Positions 1 through 56,637 of a stretch of 64,000 nt of DNA are shown here, piece by piece (the stretch's first letter is position 1; every line of letters begins with the position of its first letter). A program made the position numbers and the translations under genes. This stretch comes from a bacterium. Lineage in GTDB: Bacteria; Ratteibacteria; UBA8468; B48-G9; JAFGKM01. Under the pieces are notes generated by a model. The model was not told where the DNA came from and ran no database searches. It worked only from the letters and a program-made list of their open reading frames with translations. Where the stretch lies: assembly GCA_026414725.1 (NCBI GenBank), contig JAOAIL010000006.1, positions 390 to 64,389 of the forward strand, read 5' to 3'.

Positions 1-680
1 ACATCCAATGATAAAGAAAACCTTCTTGCACCTGGTTGATGAAGATAACTTATTGTAGGATTTAAAGGAGTTAAATAAATCTCTCTCAAAACAGTCGTAT
101 AAACAAGCGCATTCCCAAAAGATATAAGTGCATTCAAAGGATTACCAGGTGGGTTTACAATTCTTTCTCCAAATTCCCAGCCAGTAATTTTTTCAAAACA
201 ACCATAATATAGTTTCCTTGTATGTGCCTCTAAACTCATAAGTTCTGGTATGGTCTTCGCCTTTTCTATTTCTTTCTCAAACTCCTCTATCTGTGATATT
301 TCTTTTTTAAAGTCCTCTCTTTTTTGAAGATTTCTTTTTATATTGTGTATGGCACCCTGAACAAAACATCTTGCAAGAACAATTCTTTTTGTTCCATCAA
401 GATAATGTGCTACTTGTCTGATTAAAAGGTCTCCTGAGAGATTTGTCTCGCGTGGGTAAAAAGTTCCAGAATAATATCCATAATAATTAAATATATGGAT
501 ACAGATACCATTCTGAGCGGAAAAATTTAAAAACTTATTATTGAAGTCAACTTCTCCAAAGACAAACAACTGGTCTATATTTTCAACTGGAATTGGCTTT
601 TTACCTTCCATTGTTTCAAAAAATATGGTGTTTTCTTTTCGCTTCAATACTCCATTAGAAAAGATATAATAGTTCTTCAT
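1..680 (-). CDS. cas1: CRISPR-associated endonuclease Cas1, 5'-complete and 3'-truncated by the window edge
   Basis: My own translation of the minus strand from the ATG at 680-678 gives MKNYYIFSNGVLKRKENTIFFETMEGKKPIPVENIDQLFVFGEVDFNNKFLNFSAQNGICIHIFNYYGYY with no stop down to position 1. This is the classic type I-B Cas1 N-terminus. The start overlaps the cas4 stop as ATGA. Confidence 0.85.
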   Translation of the reverse strand, partial: MKNYYIFSNGVLKRKENTIFFETMEGKKPIPVENIDQLFVFGEVDFNNKFLNFSAQNGICIHIFNYYGYYSGTFYPRETNLSGDLLIRQVAHYLDGTKRIVLARCFVQGAIHNIKRNLQKREDFKKEISQIEEFEKEIEKAKTIPELMSLEAHTRKLYYGCFEKITGWEFGERIVNPPGNPLNALISFGNALVYTTVLREIYLTPLNPTISYLHQPGARRFSLSLD

Positions 681-1192
681 ATATAACAGAGTTCAAAATA
701 TGCACAGTTTCTGCAATATGGTTTTTTTACTACCTCAGGTGGTTTAGATAGGTCCATTATCTCTTTAATATTCTCTTCTGCATTTTCTATATTCCTTCTA
801 TCTTCATCTTTTAAAATTACCTCTATTTTTTTCATCAATTTAGGGTAATGAATTATTCCTCTTGTACATTCTACTCCTGTCCTCTGGAGTTTATAGATGT
901 AGAACTTTGTCTGCCATATATGTGCTTCTTCAAGATTCCTTGATTTTTTGACTTCATTAACTATTATTTCATTTCCAATCCTGAGAAAATCCACTTTTAT
1001 TGTGTCTCCTAACATTATCTCTTTATACCCTTCTCTTTTAAATGAACTCTCACTTAATACTTTACCCATCTCAACAAAATCAGAAAATTGCTCCATTCCT
1101 AATCCATGTGAGAACAACCATAGTTTCCTTTTACACACAATATAATAAGCGATATGTGTTCCAGTAATTCTATAATTTAATAAATCTACCAT
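677..1192 (-). CDS. cas4: CRISPR-associated exonuclease Cas4 (RecB-like nuclease with Fe-S cluster)
   Basis: N-terminal YYIVCKRKLWL motif, QTKFY RecB motif, and the C-terminal CRNCAYFELC cysteine cluster. Confidence 0.85.
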   Translation of the reverse strand: MVDLLNYRITGTHIAYYIVCKRKLWLFSHGLGMEQFSDFVEMGKVLSESSFKREGYKEIMLGDTIKVDFLRIGNEIIVNEVKKSRNLEEAHIWQTKFYIYKLQRTGVECTRGIIHYPKLMKKIEVILKDEDRRNIENAEENIKEIMDLSKPPEVVKKPYCRNCAYFELCYI

Positions 1193-1198
1193 TAGATT

Positions 1199-3712
1199 TT
1201 AAATAATAATTGACTGTTCTTTTATTTTGTTTACCTTTAAAACCCAAATATTCTCAGAATAACTCCGTAATTTTCTACTTATTTCAACATCTTTCTGCAC
1301 TATTTTATCTTTTAAAATATTCCATAAAGTATCTATTATTTCCCGTTCTTTTATTTTCCATCCTGATAAATTTATTACATATTTAGCTATGATTTCCTTT
1401 TTAAACCAAAGCCAAGTAATGTCCAAATTATTTAGAATAGCATCATTTATTTTTTTAATTATTTCATTTTCATGTTCTGATTTTATTATTGACATAGAAA
1501 AAATCTCTCTAAATAAATTATGCGCTTCTTCTTTATACTCAGAAACATAGCCAGCGTTCAAAATTGATACTGTCTGAAAAAAAGTATTGATATACTCTGA
1601 ATTTTCTAAATTGTCATAAAGTCCTTCAACCAACTTTTGTTTCTCCTTTTCTGTAAAATTATTTTTATTTTTTAAAATTTCTAGGGTTCCCTTCAATAAA
1701 ATCTCTTCATATATCTTTCCTTTCCCAGATTCTATATATCCTTTTTCTTTTATATAATAGACATATATGTTTTTTTCATTTTGAGAATAATAATTTTCAT
1801 ATGTAAAAATTCTATTTGAATCTTTAATACTTCCTGTTAATACATTTACTCTCCTCATTATTCTTCCCATACGTTGAATCAAAGAATCCATTGGAGCAAT
1901 CTCTGTAAATAAATAATCTGCATCTATATCCAATGATGCTTCAATAACTTGAGTAGCAACAAGTATTTTAGATTTATTCTCATCTTCGGGTTTAGGATTA
2001 TTGAATTCTTCTTCCAGTCTTTTTTCCTTTTCCTTTCTTTCTTCTAATGTAAATCTTGAATGTAGTATATCAAGGTATATTTTTTGATCTTTAGTACTAT
2101 TTTTTATGTATTCATACATTTCCTCTGCTTTTTCAACAGTATTACAAACCACAAGAACTCTTTTACCTTTTTTAGATTTATCTATAATTTCTCTTATATC
2201 ATCTGTAATACTTTTATCTCGCAATTCTATCTTATGCCTGATAAGATCGTCTTTTATTTCAGAATAATAATTAATAATATCGCTATCCGATATGACATTC
2301 TTATCTTTCAAATAATTCTTTACAAAATTAGGAAGTGTTGCTGTCATCAATAAAAATTTACCACCCAGAGAAACAATATCTTCTATTAATTTTACTATCA
2401 TTGCACATGCTTTTGGATTATATGCTTGAACTTCATCTATTACTAATCTTGAATAGCCTAAAGTTGCATAAACTTTTTCGTATTGAGGGTATTTTAAAGA
2501 TGCAGGAAAAATCTGGTCTCCTGTACATATATTTATGGGTAAAGAAAAATGTCTTGAAAGGTCTAGAATTTTAAGTAGTTCCCCATCTATATCTTCTGTT
2601 GAATTGCTTGATTTTTCCACCAAATAAAGGTCTGCATCTGAATGTAAAAGTCCCACATTTTCATTTATGAAAGGGTCTTCTTCTTTAAAAATAGCAGCAT
2701 TTGATTGGTTTAAGTATTTAGAGATACGGTCAAATATTTGGTTTGTGGCACATCTTAAAGGAAGTGTATAAAAAAGTTTCTCATCCTCTGACCACAATAA
2801 AGCAAATTCTGTTTTACCAATACCTGTCGGGGCAATAAGAATCAAATTTTTGTTTTTAAAATTTTCAACCATATCTTTCTGCCAAAATTGTTTGCCAAAA
2901 TGTTTTTCTAATATATTCTCAATAATAGAAATTCTTTTTGTTTCCTTTTCAACTTCGCATAAAGTAATACCACGGTGTTCTTGCCTTTCTACAAATGAAG
3001 TAAAATGGTCTGCTCTTATTAAAAAGCCAGAAAGAAAAATCCACAGATTAAGGTCTATTTTCAATTCTATTTCCAGTTTTAATCTCTCTGGTAGAAAATA
3101 AAGAGTGTACGGAGGGATTATCCCAATACTGGTTAAATTACCCCCTTGAGAAATTTGTTTTACAATATGTTCATCAAATGAAATATAATCAGTTACGGCC
3201 AATCCATCTATTTTAAAATTAGAAAAAATTTTTTTTAGTTCTTCCGTAAGTGTTGCTCCATTACTATTCTTTAACAGAAATTCTGCTGTTTCTCTCAAAT
3301 CATTATTTATTTGCAAAAGATACTTTTTTTCGTCTATTTTCCAGTGATGAAAAGCAACAGCAGATAAAAATGTTGTATATAAACTTTCGCTATTTCTACA
3401 TATTGTCTTTACTTTTTCCTTGTCTATGAAGAACAAGGATAGAATATTGTGTCTTACATAAGGAAATTTATTATTGGAAGTCAGGGTATTGGTATTACCT
3501 ATCTTTTTCTGAAAAGAAGGCGATATTTTCCCAAGGTCATGAAAAAATCCAGCCCATTTAAGCAGATATTTTAAATAATACTCATCAATATTAGAACCGT
3601 TTTTAAAATTGCCATAGTTTAATTTATCTAAAGGTAGTTTTTCAATTGTTTTTATCACATCTTCAGTGTGTTTAATTAATAGTACTCCACTAGATTTTGC
3701 CCATATATCCAT
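1199..3712 (-). CDS. cas3: Cas3 fused HD nuclease plus DExH helicase
   Basis: N-terminal HD motif FFHDLGK, Walker A LIAPTGIGKTEFAL, DEVQ box. 837 aa. Confidence 0.9.
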   Translation of the reverse strand: MDIWAKSSGVLLIKHTEDVIKTIEKLPLDKLNYGNFKNGSNIDEYYLKYLLKWAGFFHDLGKISPSFQKKIGNTNTLTSNNKFPYVRHNILSLFFIDKEKVKTICRNSESLYTTFLSAVAFHHWKIDEKKYLLQINNDLRETAEFLLKNSNGATLTEELKKIFSNFKIDGLAVTDYISFDEHIVKQISQGGNLTSIGIIPPYTLYFLPERLKLEIELKIDLNLWIFLSGFLIRADHFTSFVERQEHRGITLCEVEKETKRISIIENILEKHFGKQFWQKDMVENFKNKNLILIAPTGIGKTEFALLWSEDEKLFYTLPLRCATNQIFDRISKYLNQSNAAIFKEEDPFINENVGLLHSDADLYLVEKSSNSTEDIDGELLKILDLSRHFSLPINICTGDQIFPASLKYPQYEKVYATLGYSRLVIDEVQAYNPKACAMIVKLIEDIVSLGGKFLLMTATLPNFVKNYLKDKNVISDSDIINYYSEIKDDLIRHKIELRDKSITDDIREIIDKSKKGKRVLVVCNTVEKAEEMYEYIKNSTKDQKIYLDILHSRFTLEERKEKEKRLEEEFNNPKPEDENKSKILVATQVIEASLDIDADYLFTEIAPMDSLIQRMGRIMRRVNVLTGSIKDSNRIFTYENYYSQNEKNIYVYYIKEKGYIESGKGKIYEEILLKGTLEILKNKNNFTEKEKQKLVEGLYDNLENSEYINTFFQTVSILNAGYVSEYKEEAHNLFREIFSMSIIKSEHENEIIKKINDAILNNLDITWLWFKKEIIAKYVINLSGWKIKEREIIDTLWNILKDKIVQKDVEISRKLRSYSENIWVLKVNKIKEQSIII

Positions 3713-3726
3713 TTTAATACTCCGGA

Positions 3727-4578
3727 TTAAATCATTTTACACAAAAAAAGAGGAATATTCATTTCAGTATCTGTTATAAATTCAAAAGGTTTTCCGAAAT
3801 AAAAAGGAAACTCACCTTGTTCAAAAAGTTTCACAGGGATATGTCTAAAATTTCGGAAACCATCTTCTATTTTATAAAGCCCTGTGACTAGATGAAAACT
3901 CCCTTTAATTTTTAAGAAGAACTCCTTATAGTCAACAGGATAAAAATCTTTTTCAAACCAATTAGGATATTCTTTACTTTTCTTATTTCGTGGTCTTGGG
4001 TCAGGAATCCAAGTATAATAGTATAACTTTCCATAAAAAGGTTTTTTATTATTTTTATCAATATCAACTATCCTTATTGCTTCCTCTGGACTATCTTCAA
4101 ATACAATCCAGTCCTCTGCTCTTCCAAGATGTAAAGGATAAATTCTATTTTGTGGATTGTTAAATACCTCCTTCAATTCTATGATGAATTTTTCATCACT
4201 ATGGTAAATGTAGATGATAAGGTTTACATTCTCTAAAACATCTATTCTCGTAGGTATCTGTCTTCCTGGATGTTCAGGAATTTGGTCCATAGTTCTATTT
4301 TGTATAGTAATAAATCTATTTCTGTGCGAATTTGCTGACAAGTTTCTTAGCCATATATATTCTTTTGTCATTGATTCAAACTTTCCATAAATAGCAAGAC
4401 CTAACTCTTTTAACTTAACGAACTTCTCATCATTTTGGTCTTTTATTCCGAGAACATTACATATAAGTCCTATAACAGTAGAATAAGGAGGAATGGGATA
4501 AGTATGCCTTCTAGAAAGAGTGAACGGAATTCTATAATGAACATGGGGTTGATAAATTTTTAATCTCAAAAATTTCAT
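3727..4578 (-). CDS. cas5: Cas5 (Cas5t/Cas5h-type) Cascade subunit
   Basis: N-terminal LTYPIPPYSTVIGLICNVLG-type Cas5 signature; position between cas7 and cas3. Confidence 0.8.
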   Translation of the reverse strand: MKFLRLKIYQPHVHYRIPFTLSRRHTYPIPPYSTVIGLICNVLGIKDQNDEKFVKLKELGLAIYGKFESMTKEYIWLRNLSANSHRNRFITIQNRTMDQIPEHPGRQIPTRIDVLENVNLIIYIYHSDEKFIIELKEVFNNPQNRIYPLHLGRAEDWIVFEDSPEEAIRIVDIDKNNKKPFYGKLYYYTWIPDPRPRNKKSKEYPNWFEKDFYPVDYKEFFLKIKGSFHLVTGLYKIEDGFRNFRHIPVKLFEQGEFPFYFGKPFEFITDTEMNIPLFLCKMI

Positions 4579-4618
4579 TTTAACTATTCCTGTATTTGGT
4601 AAATTCTTTTCTTAAGAG

Positions 4619-5560
4619 CTATTTAAATAACTCTTTTATAAATATATCCCATTTTGCATATGAGTGCTTTTCTATAAAATCTGAACTCATTGCATCTGGT
4701 TCTCGAGATTCAACAAAAGTTAAACTTTTTCCATTTATTTTTTCAATCCAACCATTAGATATTCCATTCTGCAGTAAATTCTCCCTAATTCTAAATTTTG
4801 GTCTATGATTTTCTTTATAGAATTCCACATCAACAAAGGAATGAAATATTGGAATAGGAATCTTTACGATACCTGAAATCAAAAATAAAGGCACAATGCC
4901 AGGACATTCTCCAGAAGAATGATAGTAAAGACCATTGTAAATAGAAGTCAATATGTCTAGAACTCGTCCCTCCTTTTCTTGGTCAGAAATAACCAATCTG
5001 CCACTATCATCGGTTCCTATTTTTTTCAAATCCAACGTAAAGGAGGTTTTATAAAGCGACTTATGTTCTTCAGGATTATATGGATTTGGTTCAAGTTTTG
5101 CATCTGGATATTGTTTAACATATCTTCTAACTAAATCATGATTCGCATAGAAAGTAATATCTCCTGCCCATGGTTCAAAAGAAATAGATTTTGTTATTCC
5201 TATAGCGGATTTCCTTGTAATCTGTTTTCCTTTCCCCTTTTTATTACCTTTTTTAGTTCCCATATATCCAAAAACATCAAGTTCAGCATACTCTTTAATA
5301 TTACCTTTTTTAAGATCAAATTGAATAACATTACCATTGGCTCTTGTAACGGGCGCTTCTTTCCATCTTTCTGGATTCATCCTGTTAAGTGTTATCCAGA
5401 GGTAATGTCTCATTGCAGGCCTTGAAATAAATGAATATGCTTCTCCCCAACCTCTCATAAGTTTCTTGATAGAAGGAATATTTCCTGCTACTTTTTCTCC
5501 TCGGTTAAGAGCATCTGCTTCAAAAATAATAGTAATGGTTATTGCTTCCTTAATCTTCAT
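4619..5560 (-). CDS. cas7: Cas7 (Cst2/DevR-type) Cascade backbone subunit
   Basis: ITIIFEADALNRGEKVAGNI N-terminal Cas7 signature. 313 aa. Sits in the canonical I-B position. Confidence 0.8.
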   Translation of the reverse strand: MKIKEAITITIIFEADALNRGEKVAGNIPSIKKLMRGWGEAYSFISRPAMRHYLWITLNRMNPERWKEAPVTRANGNVIQFDLKKGNIKEYAELDVFGYMGTKKGNKKGKGKQITRKSAIGITKSISFEPWAGDITFYANHDLVRRYVKQYPDAKLEPNPYNPEEHKSLYKTSFTLDLKKIGTDDSGRLVISDQEKEGRVLDILTSIYNGLYYHSSGECPGIVPLFLISGIVKIPIPIFHSFVDVEFYKENHRPKFRIRENLLQNGISNGWIEKINGKSLTFVESREPDAMSSDFIEKHSYAKWDIFIKELFK

Positions 5561-5870
5561 TTTGTTCCTCCTTTATATTTTTTTGTAAAGTTAAAATAGG
5601 GGCTAGGAATGAGAAAAGTAATGTTTTAAAGTATATTTCATTCTCAGGTTTAAATGCTTCTATAAGTTCTTCAGGAAATTTCTTTCCATTTGTCTTAAAC
5701 CATCTAAGTAGTATATAAAAGACATTATCTTTATTCTCGAGACGAATCTGTTCAAGTAACCTGAAAGCGATGTTATCTATTGATTTCAACTCCTCCTCGG
5801 ATGCTAATTGTCTACTTATTTCTTTTCCTTTTTCTTTTAAATTCCACATTAGTATGTCTATATTAGCCAT
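5550..5870 (-). CDS. Small (106 aa) protein between cas8 and cas7, a putative separately encoded Cas11/small subunit
   Basis: Overlaps the cas8 stop by 8 nt and the cas7 start by 11 nt, so it is translationally coupled. Size and position fit a small subunit. No recognisable motif. Confidence 0.45.
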   Translation of the reverse strand: MANIDILMWNLKEKGKEISRQLASEEELKSIDNIAFRLLEQIRLENKDNVFYILLRWFKTNGKKFPEELIEAFKPENEIYFKTLLFSFLAPILTLQKNIKEEQNED

Positions 5871-7008
5871 ATCCCACCTCCGTTTTTAAGATTTTCATTA
5901 TTCTTGTATATAATTCTGACAAAAGGAGTGAAATTTTATAAAGATTATTTATATCCATTTTACTTTCACTTATATACTTTTTTACTGGATCGTTTTCAGA
6001 AATCCTTTCCTTATTTTTTATTTTTAATAGAGTCCTTAAAATAAAATAGTTTGCCTTTTCAAGTTCTGAAAATTTTCCATCAAGAAGTAAATTAAAAATT
6101 TTTATTTCTCCAATTCTATCTATTAAATTAGCAATTTCATAATCAATTAATATTCTTGTTATGTGATAAGGTAAATCATAATAATCAATAATATTTTCCA
6201 ATTTATTATTAATTCTAACCCTTCTTTTAACTATCATTTCAATATTCATCATTGTCCAGGTTCCAAGTAGTGCTCTTCTTTTGACAATCCACTGAAGTAA
6301 GGAAGTAGCAAAAAGTTTTTTAATGTTATATTGTTCATCCTTGATAAAAAATTTTTCAATAAATTTATTTAAATCCCATGTAAGATAGAATAAAGAAGTA
6401 TTTATAAAAACATCTTTGTAAAAAGATAAATGATGAAAAATTACTAAATAAGAACACAGATGACATAATGGTGTTGAGGTTTTAAAGTTCCAGAAGGAAT
6501 TAGGCATTTCTGTAATGGCTCCTCCTAATTCTTTAATATGTATTCCTTGAAATACTTCTCTTTGAGAGATAAATTTAATAAATGAATCTTTATTCTTTTT
6601 ATATGAAACATTTGTTAAAAATTTACTCTGTAAATCATCTAATACTTTTTGAGGTAAGAAATGCCCACAACACCAATTACAGGATTTATTATTTATTCTG
6701 GGTTCAACAGAAGATAATTTTTTAATATATTCTTCCTTAAAAAAATCTTCTTGATTTTTTTGTATATAATTTGGATATCTTTTATTTTTTCCATATATTT
6801 TAAACTCTTCGTTTAATTCCTTTTTATGATATTGTACAAGCAATTTATAACTTTCTTCTAAAACCTTTCTTTCTATCTCAACACTCCCATCATTATTAAA
6901 TTGAAAAGTATTATTTTTCCCAGCGAATTCTAAAATTCGTAACAGGCCGACCACGCCTGCGTTATATAGCCAGTTAGAAGGGTAAAGTGTTATTTTATTA
7001 TTTGCCAT
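5863..7008 (-). CDS. cas8: Cas8 large subunit, Cst1/Cas8a1-like (cas_CXXC_CXXC family), type I-B Tneap variant
   Basis: N-terminal TLYPSNWLYNAGVVGLLRIL and two Cys pairs (CNWCCGH and CHLCSY), characteristic of Cst1. 381 aa. Confidence 0.7.
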   Translation of the reverse strand: MANNKITLYPSNWLYNAGVVGLLRILEFAGKNNTFQFNNDGSVEIERKVLEESYKLLVQYHKKELNEEFKIYGKNKRYPNYIQKNQEDFFKEEYIKKLSSVEPRINNKSCNWCCGHFLPQKVLDDLQSKFLTNVSYKKNKDSFIKFISQREVFQGIHIKELGGAITEMPNSFWNFKTSTPLCHLCSYLVIFHHLSFYKDVFINTSLFYLTWDLNKFIEKFFIKDEQYNIKKLFATSLLQWIVKRRALLGTWTMMNIEMIVKRRVRINNKLENIIDYYDLPYHITRILIDYEIANLIDRIGEIKIFNLLLDGKFSELEKANYFILRTLLKIKNKERISENDPVKKYISESKMDINNLYKISLLLSELYTRIMKILKTEVGYG

Positions 7009-7568
7009 TTTTTCTTTATCTCTTCTATTATTTTTAATGTTTTTCTATTAACATCAGGATAATCTTCTACAGAAAGAATTGCTCCAAGATATAGATTAAA
7101 ATCCTGCAAAGGAAACTTTTTTTCAAAATCGCTTTCTACTTTTTCTTTTTCCCACTTATATTTACTATAAAGGAATGCAAAATCCACCAAATCTTTTGTT
7201 TCAATTCTTCTTCCAGCAGAATAGATTTTGTTAATGAATATGTCATAATCAGAAGCCATTTTTATTCCGTCATATACTTCAAGTGGATTTATATTTTTAA
7301 AAGGGAAAAAGATAAAAGAAACTTTTATTCCTTTAATTATAAAGTCAATATTATCCACAAACTTTTCTTCTTTTTCCAGTACAAAAAATTTTTTTATTTT
7401 TGAGGATATTCTCATATAAGAAAATTCTTCCTCAGTAAGGAAATCAAGGTCTTCACTAATTCTATGATTATACTTAAACATTAATACAGTCCCACCTGCA
7501 AGATAGAAATTTTTGAAATTATTCTGTATCTCCCTCGCTATTTTTTTCATTTGTTCTGTTTTTTCCAT
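6990..7568 (-). CDS. Nucleotidyltransferase of the AbiEii/DUF1814 (type IV toxin-like) family, embedded in the cas operon
   Basis: N-terminal minimal-NTase motif FYLAGGTVLMFKYNHRISEDLDF matches the AbiEii LKGGTAL...R.SEDIDF consensus. Overlaps both neighbours. Confidence 0.6.
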   Translation of the reverse strand: MEKTEQMKKIAREIQNNFKNFYLAGGTVLMFKYNHRISEDLDFLTEEEFSYMRISSKIKKFFVLEKEEKFVDNIDFIIKGIKVSFIFFPFKNINPLEVYDGIKMASDYDIFINKIYSAGRRIETKDLVDFAFLYSKYKWEKEKVESDFEKKFPLQDFNLYLGAILSVEDYPDVNRKTLKIIEEIKKKWQIIK

Positions 7569-7819
7569 ATCTTTATCCAGAATTTTACTCCCCTTTTTAC
7601 TTCAGGGTATTTAAAAGCAATTTTGAAAGTTTCTTCAGGATATTGATAATAAATTTCTTTTATATCTTCAAAATTACCATAGGTGAGTATTCTTAATATA
7701 TACTTTTCAAGGACAACATCTTTTGCACAATCCCAGAATATACTTCTATATTTTTCAGGAATGTTTACTTTTTCTTTATATGTAATATTTATTCTTTGAG
7801 TTTTTCCTATGGTCTTCAT
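7547..7819 (-). CDS. 90-aa protein of unknown function, upstream partner of the NTase (possible antitoxin/adaptor)
   Basis: 6 nt after the cas6 stop, with a 22-nt overlap with the NTase gene. No recognised motif. Confidence 0.4.
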   Translation of the reverse strand: MKTIGKTQRINITYKEKVNIPEKYRSIFWDCAKDVVLEKYILRILTYGNFEDIKEIYYQYPEETFKIAFKYPEVKRGVKFWIKIWKKQNK

Positions 7820-7825
7820 CTTATC

Positions 7826-8572
7826 TCATAACTGTTTTATTACATCAATCATTCCAAAACCCTGGCCAGTTCTTACTCCTATCCCAAAATCATATAAAAA
7901 TTGCAATACTTCAGGATTCCCTTCAAGGGAAAAGCCACCTTTAAATCCTTTTGCATATCCACCAAAAACAGGAACTATTATTTCTGTTATTCTATAATCC
8001 GGTAGGATATTAAATTGTATATTACTTTTCAATGTTTTTCCTAAGATAGAACTATAACTTATTGCTGTTCTTTCATTAAATACTTCATTGAACTTCTGTA
8101 TGTTATCTTTTGAGGGAACTGTAAACCATTCAGAAAAGTTAGAAGGAGAAGCAGATGGGTCTGTCATTACTATTGCACCTATGGATTTACAAATAATCTT
8201 TGAGGAATTTATCCTACGCTGTGGGAGAAGTTGTATATTCTCAAGGACAAACTTTACTCCTTCAATTTCTATAAATGCATTCTCGTTCTTTTGAAGAGAT
8301 AGTATTCCATTCCAAAAGTGAGAAATTACTGAAATATCACCGGAAGAAAAAATGATAGATATATCAGGTCCTAAAATACCTTTCTCCCAGTTTAGCCCGA
8401 GAAATGGAGAATAGACATAGGGTTTTACCTTCTTGGTACTAAATAGTTCTTCGTATTCTAATTGTGAGGCGGTGGAGAATATCTTTTTAAGAAATGATAT
8501 GAAATACTTTCTGATGTCTTTATTCTTTTCTGTCTTTATAGAGTTGCCTTTCAAAATAAGAGAAAATCGCAT
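7826..8572 (-). CDS. cas6: Cas6 crRNA endoribonuclease
   Basis: MRFSLILK N-terminus and the C-terminal glycine-rich loop GVRTGQGFGMIDV. Confidence 0.8.
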   Translation of the reverse strand: MRFSLILKGNSIKTEKNKDIRKYFISFLKKIFSTASQLEYEELFSTKKVKPYVYSPFLGLNWEKGILGPDISIIFSSGDISVISHFWNGILSLQKNENAFIEIEGVKFVLENIQLLPQRRINSSKIICKSIGAIVMTDPSASPSNFSEWFTVPSKDNIQKFNEVFNERTAISYSSILGKTLKSNIQFNILPDYRITEIIVPVFGGYAKGFKGGFSLEGNPEVLQFLYDFGIGVRTGQGFGMIDVIKQL

Positions 8573-8652
8573 TTTAATTATTTTACCTTTAATTTATAAA
8601 AGTGTAAATAGATGTTATTACATTGTCTTACTCTTTCCTTGCATCTTTCTTC

Positions 8653-23809: not shown

Positions 23810-24583
23810 ATGAAAAGGAAGATAATAAATTTTTGTATAGGTGCAGTATGCATCATTTTCCTTTCTGGCTGTGCAACTACAGGTAAAAAGGGGAGTAAAG
23901 AGATTGCAAAAAACGACCTTGAACTGATTGATATAAAGATGAAACAACTCCTTGCTATATCTGAAACAAGTTTAGAAATCAGCCGTAAGGCAGAGGAAAC
24001 ATCAAACGAAGCACTTGAAAAAAGCAAACAAGCAGAAGCAACGAGTGATAAAGCATTAGAAGCATCAAATAAAGCAATAGAAGCATCAAATGAAGCAAAG
24101 AAATATGCTGAAGAACAATCGCAAAAAGCGATAGAAGCAGCAAACGATGCGAAAAAGTATGCTGAAGAACAATCACAGAAAGCAATAGAAGCATCAAATA
24201 CTGCCTCTAAAGCGGCTATTGAATATTCTGATAGAGCAGCAGAAAAAGCAATTCAGGCATCTAACGAAGCAATTAAGGTAGCAAATCTTGCAAGTGAAAA
24301 GGCAATAGCAATAGCAAATCAGACAATGGCAGAAGTAAACAGGTTAAGAGCAACTATAAAGATGCAGGAAGAGGTAGAACCCATATTGAAAGAAGAACCA
24401 GCGGTTAAAATAGAACAGGTAGAACAAAAAGTACACATTGTTAAGAGCGGAGAAACACTTTCCACTATTGCCTGTAAATATTATAAAGATTCCTCTAAGT
24501 GGAAAGTAATATATGATACAAATAAAAATGTTCTTAAAAACCCTAATGTTATTACACCGGGAACAAAATTAGTCATTCCATAA
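23810..24583 (+). CDS. Lipoprotein with a repetitive alanine/lysine coiled-coil region and a C-terminal LysM domain
   Basis: FLSGC lipobox, internal KAIEASN repeats, LysM (VKSGETLSTIA...VITPGTKLVIP). Confidence 0.75.
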   Translation: MKRKIINFCIGAVCIIFLSGCATTGKKGSKEIAKNDLELIDIKMKQLLAISETSLEISRKAEETSNEALEKSKQAEATSDKALEASNKAIEASNEAKKYAEEQSQKAIEAANDAKKYAEEQSQKAIEASNTASKAAIEYSDRAAEKAIQASNEAIKVANLASEKAIAIANQTMAEVNRLRATIKMQEEVEPILKEEPAVKIEQVEQKVHIVKSGETLSTIACKYYKDSSKWKVIYDTNKNVLKNPNVITPGTKLVIP

Positions 24584-29484: not shown

Positions 29485-29558
29485 GCGCCCATAGTTCAAC
29501 TGGATAGAACGTCGGGTTGCGGACCCGAAAGTTGCTGGTTCAAATCCGGCTGGGCGCA
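29485..29558 (+). tRNA. tRNA-Arg; anticodon reads GCG in my hand fold
   Basis: Cloverleaf: acceptor GCGCCCA/TGGGCGC, D-arm GTTC..GAAC, anticodon stem TCGGG/CCCGA with loop TTGCGGA, T-arm GCTGG-TTCAAAT-CCGGC. Confidence 0.65.
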
Positions 29559-29560
29559 CA

Positions 29561-29636
29561 CGGGGCGTGGCTCAGCCTGGTTAAGAGCGCTTGGTTCGGG
29601 ACCAAGAGGTCGGCGGTTCAAATCCGCCCGCCCCGA
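29561..29636 (+). tRNA. tRNA-Pro (anticodon CGG)
   Basis: C1:G72 acceptor, anticodon loop TTCGGGA, T-loop TTCAAAT. 2 nt after tRNA-Arg. Confidence 0.7.
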
Positions 29637-56378: not shown

Positions 56379-56394
56379 ATCACAAAATTGGAGA

Positions 56395-56570
56395 TAATAT
56401 CTCAGAGTGCCCGAGAGGGCTTAATAGGGAAGTGTCGCACTCACCAAGGTGAGGAGACGACTACGCTCCCGGCGCTGTAGGGCTGACGAAATTCCAAAAG
56501 CCACTGTCTGAAAAGACGGGAAGGTGGAAGAGTAGAATGAAGCCCAAGTCAGAAGACCTGCTCTGAGGAA
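56395..56570 (+). promoter_or_regulatory. Cobalamin (AdoCbl) riboswitch aptamer
   Basis: Blocks CTTAATAGGGAAG, GCCACTG...GACGGGAAGGTGG and B12-box-like AAGCCCAAGTCAGAAGACCTGC, in the same order as the E. coli btuB leader. Closing helix CTCAGAG/CTCTGAG. Confidence 0.7.
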
Positions 56571-56637
56571 TGGCGCAGCTTTTTCCTGCGGAGTACAGGA
56601 AAAAGGGTTTTTGTATTTTAGGCGAAGAAAACAGGGT

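What the first reader, a model, noticed from the sequence alone, without database searches (positions are those of the whole stretch)
6990..7819. AbiEii/DUF1814-type nucleotidyltransferase and a 90-aa partner inserted inside a type I-B cas operon, between cas6 and cas8
Two translationally coupled ORFs sit inside the cas6...cas1 operon. They overlap each other by 22 nt. The 192-aa ORF overlaps cas8 by 19 nt, and the 90-aa ORF starts 6 nt after the cas6 stop. The 192-aa protein carries the minimal-NTase motif FYLAGGTVLMFKYNHRISEDLDF, typical of AbiEii abortive-infection toxins. The 90-aa partner has no recognisable fold. A toxin-like NTase co-transcribed with Cascade genes suggests an addiction or abortive-infection module coupled to CRISPR interference, or a new accessory or regulatory subunit. 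This gene order is not part of any canonical I-B layout.
Basis: partly seen in the sequence, partly recalled or inferred. Interest (0 to 1): 0.8.

Follow-up and report, generated by a model that had tools for sequence, protein, structure and literature searches.

The report
Toxin–antitoxin pair inside CRISPR operon
Two small overlapping genes that look like a self-contained toxin–antitoxin pair (a tRNA-modifying-type nucleotidyltransferase plus a small uncharacterised partner) sit inside a type I-B CRISPR operon, and the same pair recurs inside such operons in many uncultivated bacteria, which hints at a link between this suicide-type module and CRISPR immunity that I could not find described.

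Summary
On the minus strand, cas6 (7826-8572) is followed by a 90-aa ORF (7547-7819) and a 192-aa ORF (6990-7568). Then come cas8b, cas11b, cas7, cas5, cas3, cas4 and cas1. The stated gaps and overlaps (6, 22 and 19 nt) are right.

The 90-aa partner is a divergent DUF6922 protein. It is helical, has no HTH and matches no solved fold.

The pair is a tightly coupled two-gene cassette in more than 100 loci from many phyla. About two thirds of the 93 sequence clusters sit among unrelated housekeeping genes. About one third (30 of 93) lie in or next to type I-B cas operons, mostly at two junctions, cas6|cas8b and cas7|cas5.

The best reading is an autonomous MenAT/AbiE-like toxin–antitoxin cassette captured in the Cascade operon and co-transcribed with it. 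A functional coupling to CRISPR is plausible but not shown. I found no prior description of this association. Interest is moderate to high.

The parts
7547..7819 (-). 90-aa small partner. A divergent DUF6922 protein and the predicted antitoxin.
6990..7568 (-). 192-aa AbiEii/DUF1814 (MenT-like) nucleotidyltransferase, the predicted toxin.
7826..8572 (-). cas6, the first gene of the operon. Its stop codon lies 6 nt before the small ORF.
   Evidence: Pfam Cas_Cas6_C at 5.5e-19 and TIGR01877 at 1.4e-21. Cas6 identity tracks NTase identity across loci (Spearman 0.75).
8580..8608 (-). Best sigma-70-like promoter match on the operon strand, just upstream of cas6.
   Evidence: TTTACA-17-TAAAAT, 10 of 12 positions. 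This is a consensus match only. No terminator-like site lies between cas6 and cas8b.
5863..7008 (-). cas8b (Cst1-like large subunit). Its start overlaps the NTase gene by 19 nt.
   Evidence: PADLOC Cas8b at 8.9e-88. Pfam Cas_CXXC_CXXC at 1.1e-4.
5550..5870 (-). cas11b small subunit.
   Evidence: PADLOC Cas11b at 3.5e-26.
4619..5560 (-). cas7 (Cst2/DevR).
   Evidence: Pfam DevR at 3e-39 and TIGR02585 at 8.7e-46.
3727..4578 (-). cas5b.
   Evidence: TIGR01895 at 2.1e-33.
1199..3712 (-). cas3 (HD nuclease plus helicase).
   Evidence: TIGR01587 at 2.2e-75 and cas3_HD at 9.4e-24.
677..1192 (-). cas4.
   Evidence: Pfam Cas_Cas4 at 3.7e-54.
3..692 (-). cas1, cut off by the window edge.
   Evidence: A local Cas1 profile built from related loci matches at E=1.3e-98.

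Best explanation
The two ORFs are an autonomous two-gene toxin–antitoxin (abortive-infection type) cassette that has been captured inside the type I-B interference operon. It is transcribed with cas6 and the Cascade genes from the promoter upstream of cas6.

The 192-aa protein is an active AbiEii/MenT-type nucleotidyltransferase. By analogy with MenT1, MenT3 and MenT4, it most likely adds nucleotides to the 3' ends of tRNAs and so stops translation. The 90-aa DUF6922 protein, made just before it by coupled translation, most likely neutralises it by direct binding, as the small MenA1 antitoxin does. It has no DNA-binding fold, so it is unlikely to act as a repressor in the way AbiEi does.

On this reading the link to CRISPR is genetic: physical linkage and co-expression. 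The cassette makes the locus hard to lose, and it can arrest the cell when expression of the operon collapses, for example during phage takeover. It is not a structural Cascade subunit.

Shown here: the gene identities, the coupling of the two genes, the conservation, and the recurrent placement in I-B operons.
Inferred: co-transcription, enzymatic activity, the tRNA target, which protein is toxin and which antitoxin, and any stabilising or abortive-infection benefit.
For: Identity of the NTase:
- Pfam and PADLOC AbiEii matches.
- High-confidence AF2 model.
- AbiEii motifs I-IV (as defined in PMC3985639) and the MenT catalytic residues (PMC10435456) are conserved. They are invariant in cas-embedded members, in standalone members and in distant members alike.

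The pair as a unit:
- The small ORF lies directly upstream of the NTase gene in nearly every locus where upstream sequence is available and overlaps it in almost all of them, usually by 11-34 nt.
- Its profile also finds the partner of NTases only 28-36% identical, in Fervidobacterium, Saccharibacteria and Bradyrhizobium.
- The partner is a DUF6922 protein.

Autonomy:
- Standalone pairs sit between unrelated housekeeping genes.

Capture in cas operons:
- 30 of 93 clusters (90% identity) have I-B cas genes in the locus, and 27 are adjacent to them.
- Of 51 clusters with at least 1.5 kb of flank on both sides, 11 are flanked by cas genes on both sides.
- The junction tally is cas6|cas8b 8 and cas7|cas5 7.
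- None of 14 distant relatives is near cas genes.
- Where the pair is embedded in or abuts a cas operon it is on the cas strand, often with overlapping stop and start codons; the only opposite-strand case (L137) is a cas operon 2.6 kb away.

This window:
- No promoter or terminator is predicted between cas6 and cas8b, and base composition shows no break.

Persistence:
- Orphan or truncated cas6 genes remain next to the pairs where the effector genes are gone (L001-4, L123).
Against: - Nothing here tests toxicity, neutralisation, the enzyme's substrate or transcription.
- The partner shows no detectable relationship to MenA1 or AbiEi, so the way it neutralises the toxin is a guess.
- The repeated use of the same two junctions, and the long co-divergence with cas6 (Spearman 0.75), go beyond what simple hitchhiking predicts. 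They could point to a closer functional tie.
- Conversely, the loss of cas genes around surviving pairs shows the cassette does not reliably protect the operon.
Confidence: 0.6

Rival explanations
1. The pair is a neutral selfish hitchhiker. It is a mobile toxin–antitoxin cassette that lands in cas operons, where inserts between genes are tolerated and which themselves move between genomes. It stays only because it is addictive. It has no effect on CRISPR function or on the stability of the operon.
For: - Two thirds of family members are standalone in unrelated neighbourhoods.
- Cas-embedded and standalone members are interleaved on the tree.
- The pairs survive where cas operons have decayed.
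- Some copies are frameshifted or carry D40 substitutions.
- The NTase is much more conserved (about 62% identity) than the Cas proteins around it (35-40%). This fits lateral spread into diverse operons.
Against: - About 30% association with a single CRISPR subtype, at two recurrent junctions inside the operon and on the cas strand, is far above what random insertion would give. None of 14 distant relatives shows it.
- Co-divergence with cas6 indicates long-term joint inheritance.
- A second paralogous pair is often found alongside in the same operons.
Confidence: 0.2
2. The pair is a functionally integrated accessory module, a protein counterpart of CreTA or of the Cas13a–HicAB 'CCTA' system. 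Under this reading the NTase or its partner senses, is regulated by, or acts on CRISPR components such as Cas6, crRNA 3' ends or Cascade. The toxin then fires when interference is blocked or lost, or the enzyme modifies CRISPR RNAs.
For: - Recurrent embedding between effector genes, with overlapping codons.
- The strongest co-inheritance is with cas6, the crRNA-processing nuclease (Spearman 0.75).
- cas6-plus-pair blocks persist on their own.
- In one relative the pair follows a Csx1 CARF gene.
- Precedents exist for toxin–antitoxin modules wired to CRISPR effectors: CreTA and Cas13a–HicAB (PMC13448076).
Against: - Closely related pairs (60-68% identity) work in genomes with no cas gene within 10 kb.
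- No sequence feature separates cas-embedded members from standalone ones at the conserved sites.
- The position in the operon is not fixed.
- There is no direct evidence of any interaction.
Confidence: 0.15
3. The roles are reversed, as in HEPN–MNT type VII systems. The nucleotidyltransferase would be the antitoxin, modifying and inactivating a toxic DUF6922 protein.
For: - Minimal NTases are antitoxins in HEPN–MNT systems (PMC3632139).
- The function of DUF6922 is unknown, and no paper mentions it.
Against: - The fold and motifs match the DUF1814 toxins MenT1, MenT3, MenT4 and AbiEii, not MNT.
- The gene order, with the small gene first, matches antitoxin-first operons.
Confidence: 0.04
4. 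The two ORFs are decaying remnants and are not expressed as functional proteins.
For: Some relatives carry frameshifted NTase genes (L062, L069, L070, L133).
Against: - In this window both ORFs are intact and all catalytic residues are in place.
- Both give high-confidence folds.
- Both show strong purifying conservation across phyla.
Confidence: 0.01

Closest known systems
MenAT1 (Rv0078B–Rv0078A) and the other MenAT toxin–antitoxin systems of Mycobacterium tuberculosis (PMC10435456)
   Same: - A short (about 190 aa) DUF1814 nucleotidyltransferase toxin preceded by a small protein gene.
- The equivalent catalytic Ser/Thr, Asp, Lys and Asp positions are conserved.
   Different: - Only 10-13% sequence identity, and no sequence-level PDB hit.
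- The partner is a DUF6922 protein with no detectable similarity to MenA1.
- The cassette is embedded in a cas operon.
- The tRNA target is not tested.
AbiE (AbiEi–AbiEii), the type IV toxin–antitoxin and abortive-infection system (PMC3985639)
   Same: - A bicistronic operon with the antitoxin gene first.
- A toxin in Pfam PF08843 with NTase motifs I-IV.
- AbiE is known both to give phage resistance and to stabilise mobile DNA. Those are the two roles proposed here.
   Different: - There is no AbiEi (COG5340, winged HTH plus C-terminal domain). The partner is a 90-aa helical DUF6922 protein.
- The toxin is about 100 aa shorter than typical AbiEii.
- There is no separate autoregulated promoter, since only 6 nt separate it from cas6.
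CreTA, the CRISPR-regulated RNA toxin–antitoxin modules first found between cas6 and cas8 of Haloarcula type I-B (papers listed)
   Same: A toxin–antitoxin module at the same cas6|cas8 junction of a type I-B operon. Its proposed outcome, making the cas locus costly to lose, is the same.
   Different: - CreTA is made of two small RNAs, and its antitoxin works through Cascade.
- Here both parts are proteins and there is no intergenic space or repeat-like element.
- The cassette also works in genomes without nearby cas genes.
CCTA, the integrated Cas13a–HicAB system (PMC13448076)
   Same: A protein toxin–antitoxin pair genetically integrated into a CRISPR-Cas locus.
   Different: - A different CRISPR type (VI versus I-B) and a different toxin family (HicA RNase versus an NTase).
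- Physical and functional coupling was demonstrated for CCTA. None is shown here.

Membership tests
AbiE (AbiEi/AbiEii) | Toxin carries the DUF1814/AbiEii domain (PF08843). | tested here: met
   E=1.5e-10, 41.8 bits against a threshold of 22.5. Six PADLOC AbiEii models also match.
AbiE (AbiEi/AbiEii) | NTase motifs I (hGG/S), II (DhD), III (K...R) and IV (D) are conserved. | tested here: met
   G25 G26, R36, D40/D42, K114...R121 and D126/D129 are invariant or nearly so in 37 to 85 homologues. The motifs are as defined in PMC3985639.
AbiE (AbiEi/AbiEii) | The upstream antitoxin is AbiEi (COG5340: winged HTH plus C-terminal domain). | tested here: not met
AbiE (AbiEi/AbiEii) | Own promoter, negatively autoregulated through inverted repeats. 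| tested here: not met
   Only 6 nt separate the cas6 stop from the small ORF, and no strong promoter match lies there.
AbiE (AbiEi/AbiEii) | Toxicity, neutralisation, GTP binding and phage resistance. | not testable with these tools
   These need expression and biochemical assays.
MenAT (MenT nucleotidyltransferase toxins) | The MenT two-lobed fold. | tested here: met
MenAT (MenT nucleotidyltransferase toxins) | Catalytic residues equivalent to MenT1 T39, D41, K137 and D152. | tested here: inconclusive
   S38, D40, K114 and D126/D129 are invariant and sit at the matching motif positions. The residue-by-residue structural superposition was not available.
MenAT (MenT nucleotidyltransferase toxins) | A cognate MenA-type antitoxin. 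| tested here: not met
   No sequence or fold similarity of the partner to any PDB chain, MenA1 included. Only the architecture, with a small upstream gene, is shared.
MenAT (MenT nucleotidyltransferase toxins) | Nucleotide addition to tRNA acceptor stems. | not testable with these tools
   Needs in vitro NTase assays and tRNA sequencing.
DUF6922 (PF21956) | Match to the Pfam model. | tested here: inconclusive
   The window protein scores 20.1 bits, below the threshold of 27. However, 28 of 35 family members match (best 8.8e-15), and the family profile retrieves hundreds of PF21956 proteins. It is a divergent branch of the family.
Type I-B CRISPR-Cas | cas6, cas8b, (cas11b), cas7, cas5, cas3, cas4 and cas1 in one operon. 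| tested here: met
Type I-B CRISPR-Cas | An adjacent CRISPR array. | tested here: not met
   No array anywhere in the 64-kb window. The operon runs off the window edge at cas1, so an array may lie beyond it.
CreTA | An RNA toxin plus a crRNA-like antitoxin with degenerate repeats in a cas intergenic region. | tested here: not met
   There is no intergenic space at the junctions, which are 6 nt, a 22-nt overlap and a 19-nt overlap. Both components are conserved proteins.
HEPN–MNT (type VII) | A HEPN toxin with an Rx4-6H motif, paired with a minimal NTase antitoxin. | tested here: not met

The most novel reading that the evidence does not exclude
The DUF6922–NTase pair could be a protein-based safeguard or back-up arm of type I-B CRISPR-Cas, comparable to CreTA or to the Cas13a–HicAB CCTA system. 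Its toxin would be held in check only while the cas6/Cascade operon, or crRNA processing, is active. Loss or inhibition of the CRISPR system, by deletion, anti-CRISPR proteins or phage shut-off, would then release a tRNA-directed (or crRNA-directed) nucleotidyltransferase and arrest the cell. This wiring would have arisen repeatedly across many uncultivated phyla.
Probability: 0.25. Interest if true: 0.8.

Novelty: new variant of a known kind. Interest (0 to 1): 0.6.

Why it matters
Coupling between toxin–antitoxin modules and CRISPR-Cas is an active question. The two demonstrated examples found in this literature search are RNA-based CreTA and the type VI Cas13a–HicAB system.

This finding adds a protein toxin–antitoxin cassette from a different toxin class, a MenT/AbiEii nucleotidyltransferase with an uncharacterised DUF6922 partner. 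It sits inside type I-B interference operons, at two recurrent junctions, in roughly a third of the family and across many phyla.

If the coupling is functional, it would show that class 1 systems also recruit protein suicide or addiction modules. It would also assign a first function to DUF6922.

Even if the pair is only a hitchhiker, it is a clean natural case for studying how addictive cassettes shape the gain, shuffling and decay of cas operons. Examples seen here are cas6-plus-pair blocks recombining with different effector modules, and pairs surviving as the last remnant of lost loci.

Tried and rejected
- Sequence search of both protein profiles against PDB chains found nothing useful.
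- NCBIfam has no model for either protein.
- A Foldseek search against AFDB50 could not be run because the library was unavailable.
- An IMG/VR scan found no viral relatives.
- PLSDB gave a single 31% hit on the Aquifex plasmid ece1. There is therefore no evidence that the cassette is phage- or plasmid-borne.
- Exact look-up of the window's own protein for contig context failed.
- No CRISPR array or CreA-like repeat was found in the window.
- The composition profile shows no foreign-DNA signature for the pair.
- I considered and rejected a HEPN–MNT-like reading, a CreTA reading and a pseudogene reading. The reasons are in the membership tests and the rival explanations.
- Literature searches for DUF6922, for AbiEii with I-B or cas6, for DUF1814 with CRISPR, and for CRISPRicity found no description of this association. 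The library omits many subscription papers, so absence is not proof.
Full report
**Observation.**
The finding is accurate. All the genes lie on the minus strand.
- cas6 runs 7826-8572.
- After a 6-nt gap comes a 90-aa ORF (7547-7819).
- A 192-aa ORF (6990-7568) overlaps the 90-aa ORF by 22 nt.
- cas8b (5863-7008) overlaps the 192-aa ORF by 19 nt.
- Downstream come cas11b, cas7, cas5, cas3 and cas4, and then a cas1 cut by the window edge.

A second in-frame ATG at 7550 would give an ATGA 4-nt overlap instead of 22 nt. Either start keeps the two genes translationally coupled. The best promoter-like match on that strand lies just upstream of cas6 (8608..8580). No terminator-like site separates cas6 from cas8b, and GC content is continuous across the region. 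Co-transcription is therefore inferred. It is not shown.

**The 192-aa protein.**
- It matches Pfam AbiEii (PF08843) at E=1.5e-10, above the gathering threshold. It also matches six PADLOC AbiEii models.
- It has about 95 close homologues of 182-204 aa in many phyla. In the library clustered at 50% identity the core subfamily is small: 12 representatives at E≤1e-30 and 177 at E≤1e-10.
- The AlphaFold model is very confident (pLDDT 96.7).
- The four AbiEii motifs whose mutation abolishes toxicity and, for motifs I, II and IV, GTP binding (PMC3985639) are present as G25-G26, R36/D40/D42, K114...R121 and D126/D129. The MenT1 catalytic positions T39, D41, K137 and D152 (PMC10435456) also have counterparts.
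- These residues are invariant or nearly so in the family. They are equally conserved in members inside cas operons and in standalone members.

The enzyme is therefore very probably active. It has not been domesticated by inactivation.

**The 90-aa protein.**
- On its own it only grazes Pfam DUF6922 (E=4.6e-4, below threshold). However, 28 of 35 diverse homologues match DUF6922 (best 8.8e-15). A family profile retrieves hundreds of PF21956 proteins.
- The model (pLDDT 87) shows two short strands and four helices.
- A sequence profile finds nothing in the PDB, including MenA1 and AbiEi.
- The protein is basic, with predicted pI 9.6.
- No paper in the searchable library mentions DUF6922.

**The pair as a unit.**
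I collected 171 loci from genomes and metagenomes. In nearly every locus with upstream sequence, the small ORF lies directly upstream of the NTase gene, and it overlaps it in almost all of these, usually by 11-34 nt. The iterated small-protein profile also finds the upstream partner of NTases that are only 28-36% identical to the window's. These are in Fervidobacterium, Saccharibacteria and Bradyrhizobium. This is a conserved bicistronic cassette.

**Genomic context.**
After collapsing the NTases at 90% identity there are 93 core-family clusters.
- 30 clusters have type I-B cas genes in the locus, and 27 are directly adjacent to them.
- Of the 51 clusters with at least 1.5 kb of flank on both sides, 15 are cas-adjacent and 11 have cas genes on both sides.
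- Two junctions dominate: cas6|pair|cas8b (8 clusters, including this window) and cas7|pair|cas5 (7 clusters).
- Others are pair|cas3, pair|cas4, and cas6|pair with nothing after it.
- Where the pair is embedded in or abuts a cas operon it is on the cas strand, often with overlapping stop and start codons. One nearby cas operon, 2.6 kb from the pair in L137, is on the opposite strand.
- Among members at least 60% identical to the window protein, 15 of 24 are cas-associated. None of 14 distant relatives is.
- In one Chlorobiota locus the pair follows a Csx1 CARF gene.
- The remaining two thirds sit between unrelated genes such as radical SAM enzymes, dehydrogenases, P-type ATPases and aminoacyl-tRNA synthetases. 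This is what a mobile, self-sufficient cassette would look like.
- No relatives were found on viral contigs, and only one weak hit on a plasmid.

**Evolution.**
- On a neighbour-joining tree, cas-embedded members fall in at least six places, interleaved with standalone members. The window's own clade is mostly cas-embedded and contains both junction types.
- NTase identity correlates with Cas identity across loci. The correlation is strongest for Cas6 (Spearman 0.75) and weaker for Cas8b (0.54), Cas7 (0.40), Cas3 (0.35) and Cas5 (0.34).
- The NTase is far more conserved (about 62% identity) than the Cas proteins (35-40%).
- The window's Cas7 and Cas5 are closest to those of cas7|pair|cas5 loci. 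Its Cas6 is closest to those of cas6|pair loci. Some of those cas6|pair loci carry a very different effector module. So cas6 plus the pair behaves as a block that recombines with effector modules.
- A second, paralogous DUF6922–NTase pair (about 35% identical) sits in tandem with the first in 16 loci.
- In two lineages a full or truncated cas6 remains next to the pairs while all effector genes are gone (L001-4/L092-93 and L121-123). The cassette outlives the CRISPR locus.
- Some copies are frameshifted or carry D40 substitutions, which is common for chromosomal toxin genes.

**Mechanism.**
The best-supported reading is an autonomous MenAT/AbiE-like toxin–antitoxin cassette captured in the I-B operon.
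[quoted passage not shown] AbiE both protects against phage and stabilises mobile DNA (PMC3985639).
- By analogy, the 192-aa enzyme is the toxin. The 90-aa protein, translated just before it, is the antitoxin.
- The antitoxin probably acts by direct binding, because it has no DNA-binding fold and no promoter of its own to regulate.
- Embedding in the operon ties the pair's expression to Cascade expression. It should also make the locus costly to delete, and it could arrest the cell when host transcription collapses.
- These last steps are inference.

**Rivals.**
- A neutral hitchhiker with no effect on CRISPR (confidence 0.2).
- A truly wired accessory module in the manner of CreTA or the Cas13a–HicAB CCTA system (0.15).
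- Reversed toxin and antitoxin roles (0.04).
- Decaying remnants (0.01).

**Comparison with known systems.**
- It is an AbiEii-family toxin but not a canonical AbiE system. There is no AbiEi and no own autoregulated promoter.
- In size, fold and architecture it is closest to MenAT1, but with an unrelated partner.
- It shares a location and a possible outcome with CreTA, but none of CreTA's parts.
- It is not a HEPN–MNT system.

**Novelty and literature.**
I found no description of AbiE/MenT-type or DUF6922 modules inside type I-B operons in the following:
- the 2025 CRISPR classification;
- a December 2025 review of toxin–antitoxin and CRISPR coupling;
- the CRISPR-linked gene surveys;
- the targeted searches.

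The library is incomplete, so the novelty claim is provisional.

**Verdict.**
The identity of the pair is settled as far as computation allows. The recurrent association with type I-B operons is a real pattern that I could not find reported. A functional coupling to CRISPR remains to be tested. It is a new variant of a known kind, with interest 0.6.

Noticed in passing
L001:8590-9511, L011:10562-11405, L012:10531-11356, L014:8872-9736, L102:1936-2809, L123:8874-9738: A second, paralogous DUF6922 (92-103 aa) plus AbiEii-like (198-218 aa) pair, about 35% identical to the focal NTase, sits in tandem with the focal pair in 16 loci. It can come before or after the focal pair, mostly inside or beside type I-B operons. 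The window has only one pair.
   Followed up: partly
L001:7004-9511 (also L002-L004, L092, L093); L123:8577-10546: An orphan cas6 (full length in L001, a 97-aa fragment in L123) is followed by two NTase pairs, with no other cas genes or CRISPR array within the 10 kb of flank available on each side. This looks like a decayed CRISPR locus in which only the toxin–antitoxin cassettes and cas6 survive.
   Followed up: partly
L060:8353-10583: In a Chlorobiota MAG the pair lies directly downstream of a Csx1 CARF-domain gene (Pfam 7.6e-27), and a Cas1 profile hit lies 3.7 kb further on. The association may therefore extend beyond type I-B. The NTase in this locus is frameshifted.
   Followed up: partly
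L018:13192-15840: Two CRISPR arrays lie about 3 kb downstream of a standalone pair, although my type I-B profiles found no cas genes there. A different CRISPR type may be nearby.
   Followed up: no
L095:1451-8878 versus window 677-8572: The cas6-plus-pair blocks are related (Cas6 50% and NTase 68% identical). The effector modules attached to them are very different: L095 has a 569-aa Cas8b with no separate cas11b, and its Cas7 and Cas5 are only 28-34% identical to the window's. This suggests modular recombination of cas operons at the cassette.
   Followed up: partly
window 1-64000: No CRISPR array occurs anywhere in the window, even though the cas operon is complete. The operon runs off the left edge at cas1, so cas2 and an array may lie just beyond.
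   Followed up: partly
window 56388-56579 (+): A cobalamin riboswitch (Rfam RF00174, 94.8 bits).
   Followed up: no
window 29485-29636 (+): Two adjacent tRNA genes (Rfam RF00005, 68.6 and 65.7 bits).
   Followed up: no
window 24048-24199: A tandem repeat with periods of 21 and 54 nt (2.5-2.7 copies, 81-91% matches). It is rich in AAAGCAATAGAAGCATCAA-type units and is probably a repetitive coding segment.
   Followed up: no
window 7547-7568 (-): There is an alternative start codon for the NTase at 7550. It overlaps the stop of the small ORF as ATGA and would give a 186-aa protein. Many homologues begin at the equivalent position.
   Followed up: yes
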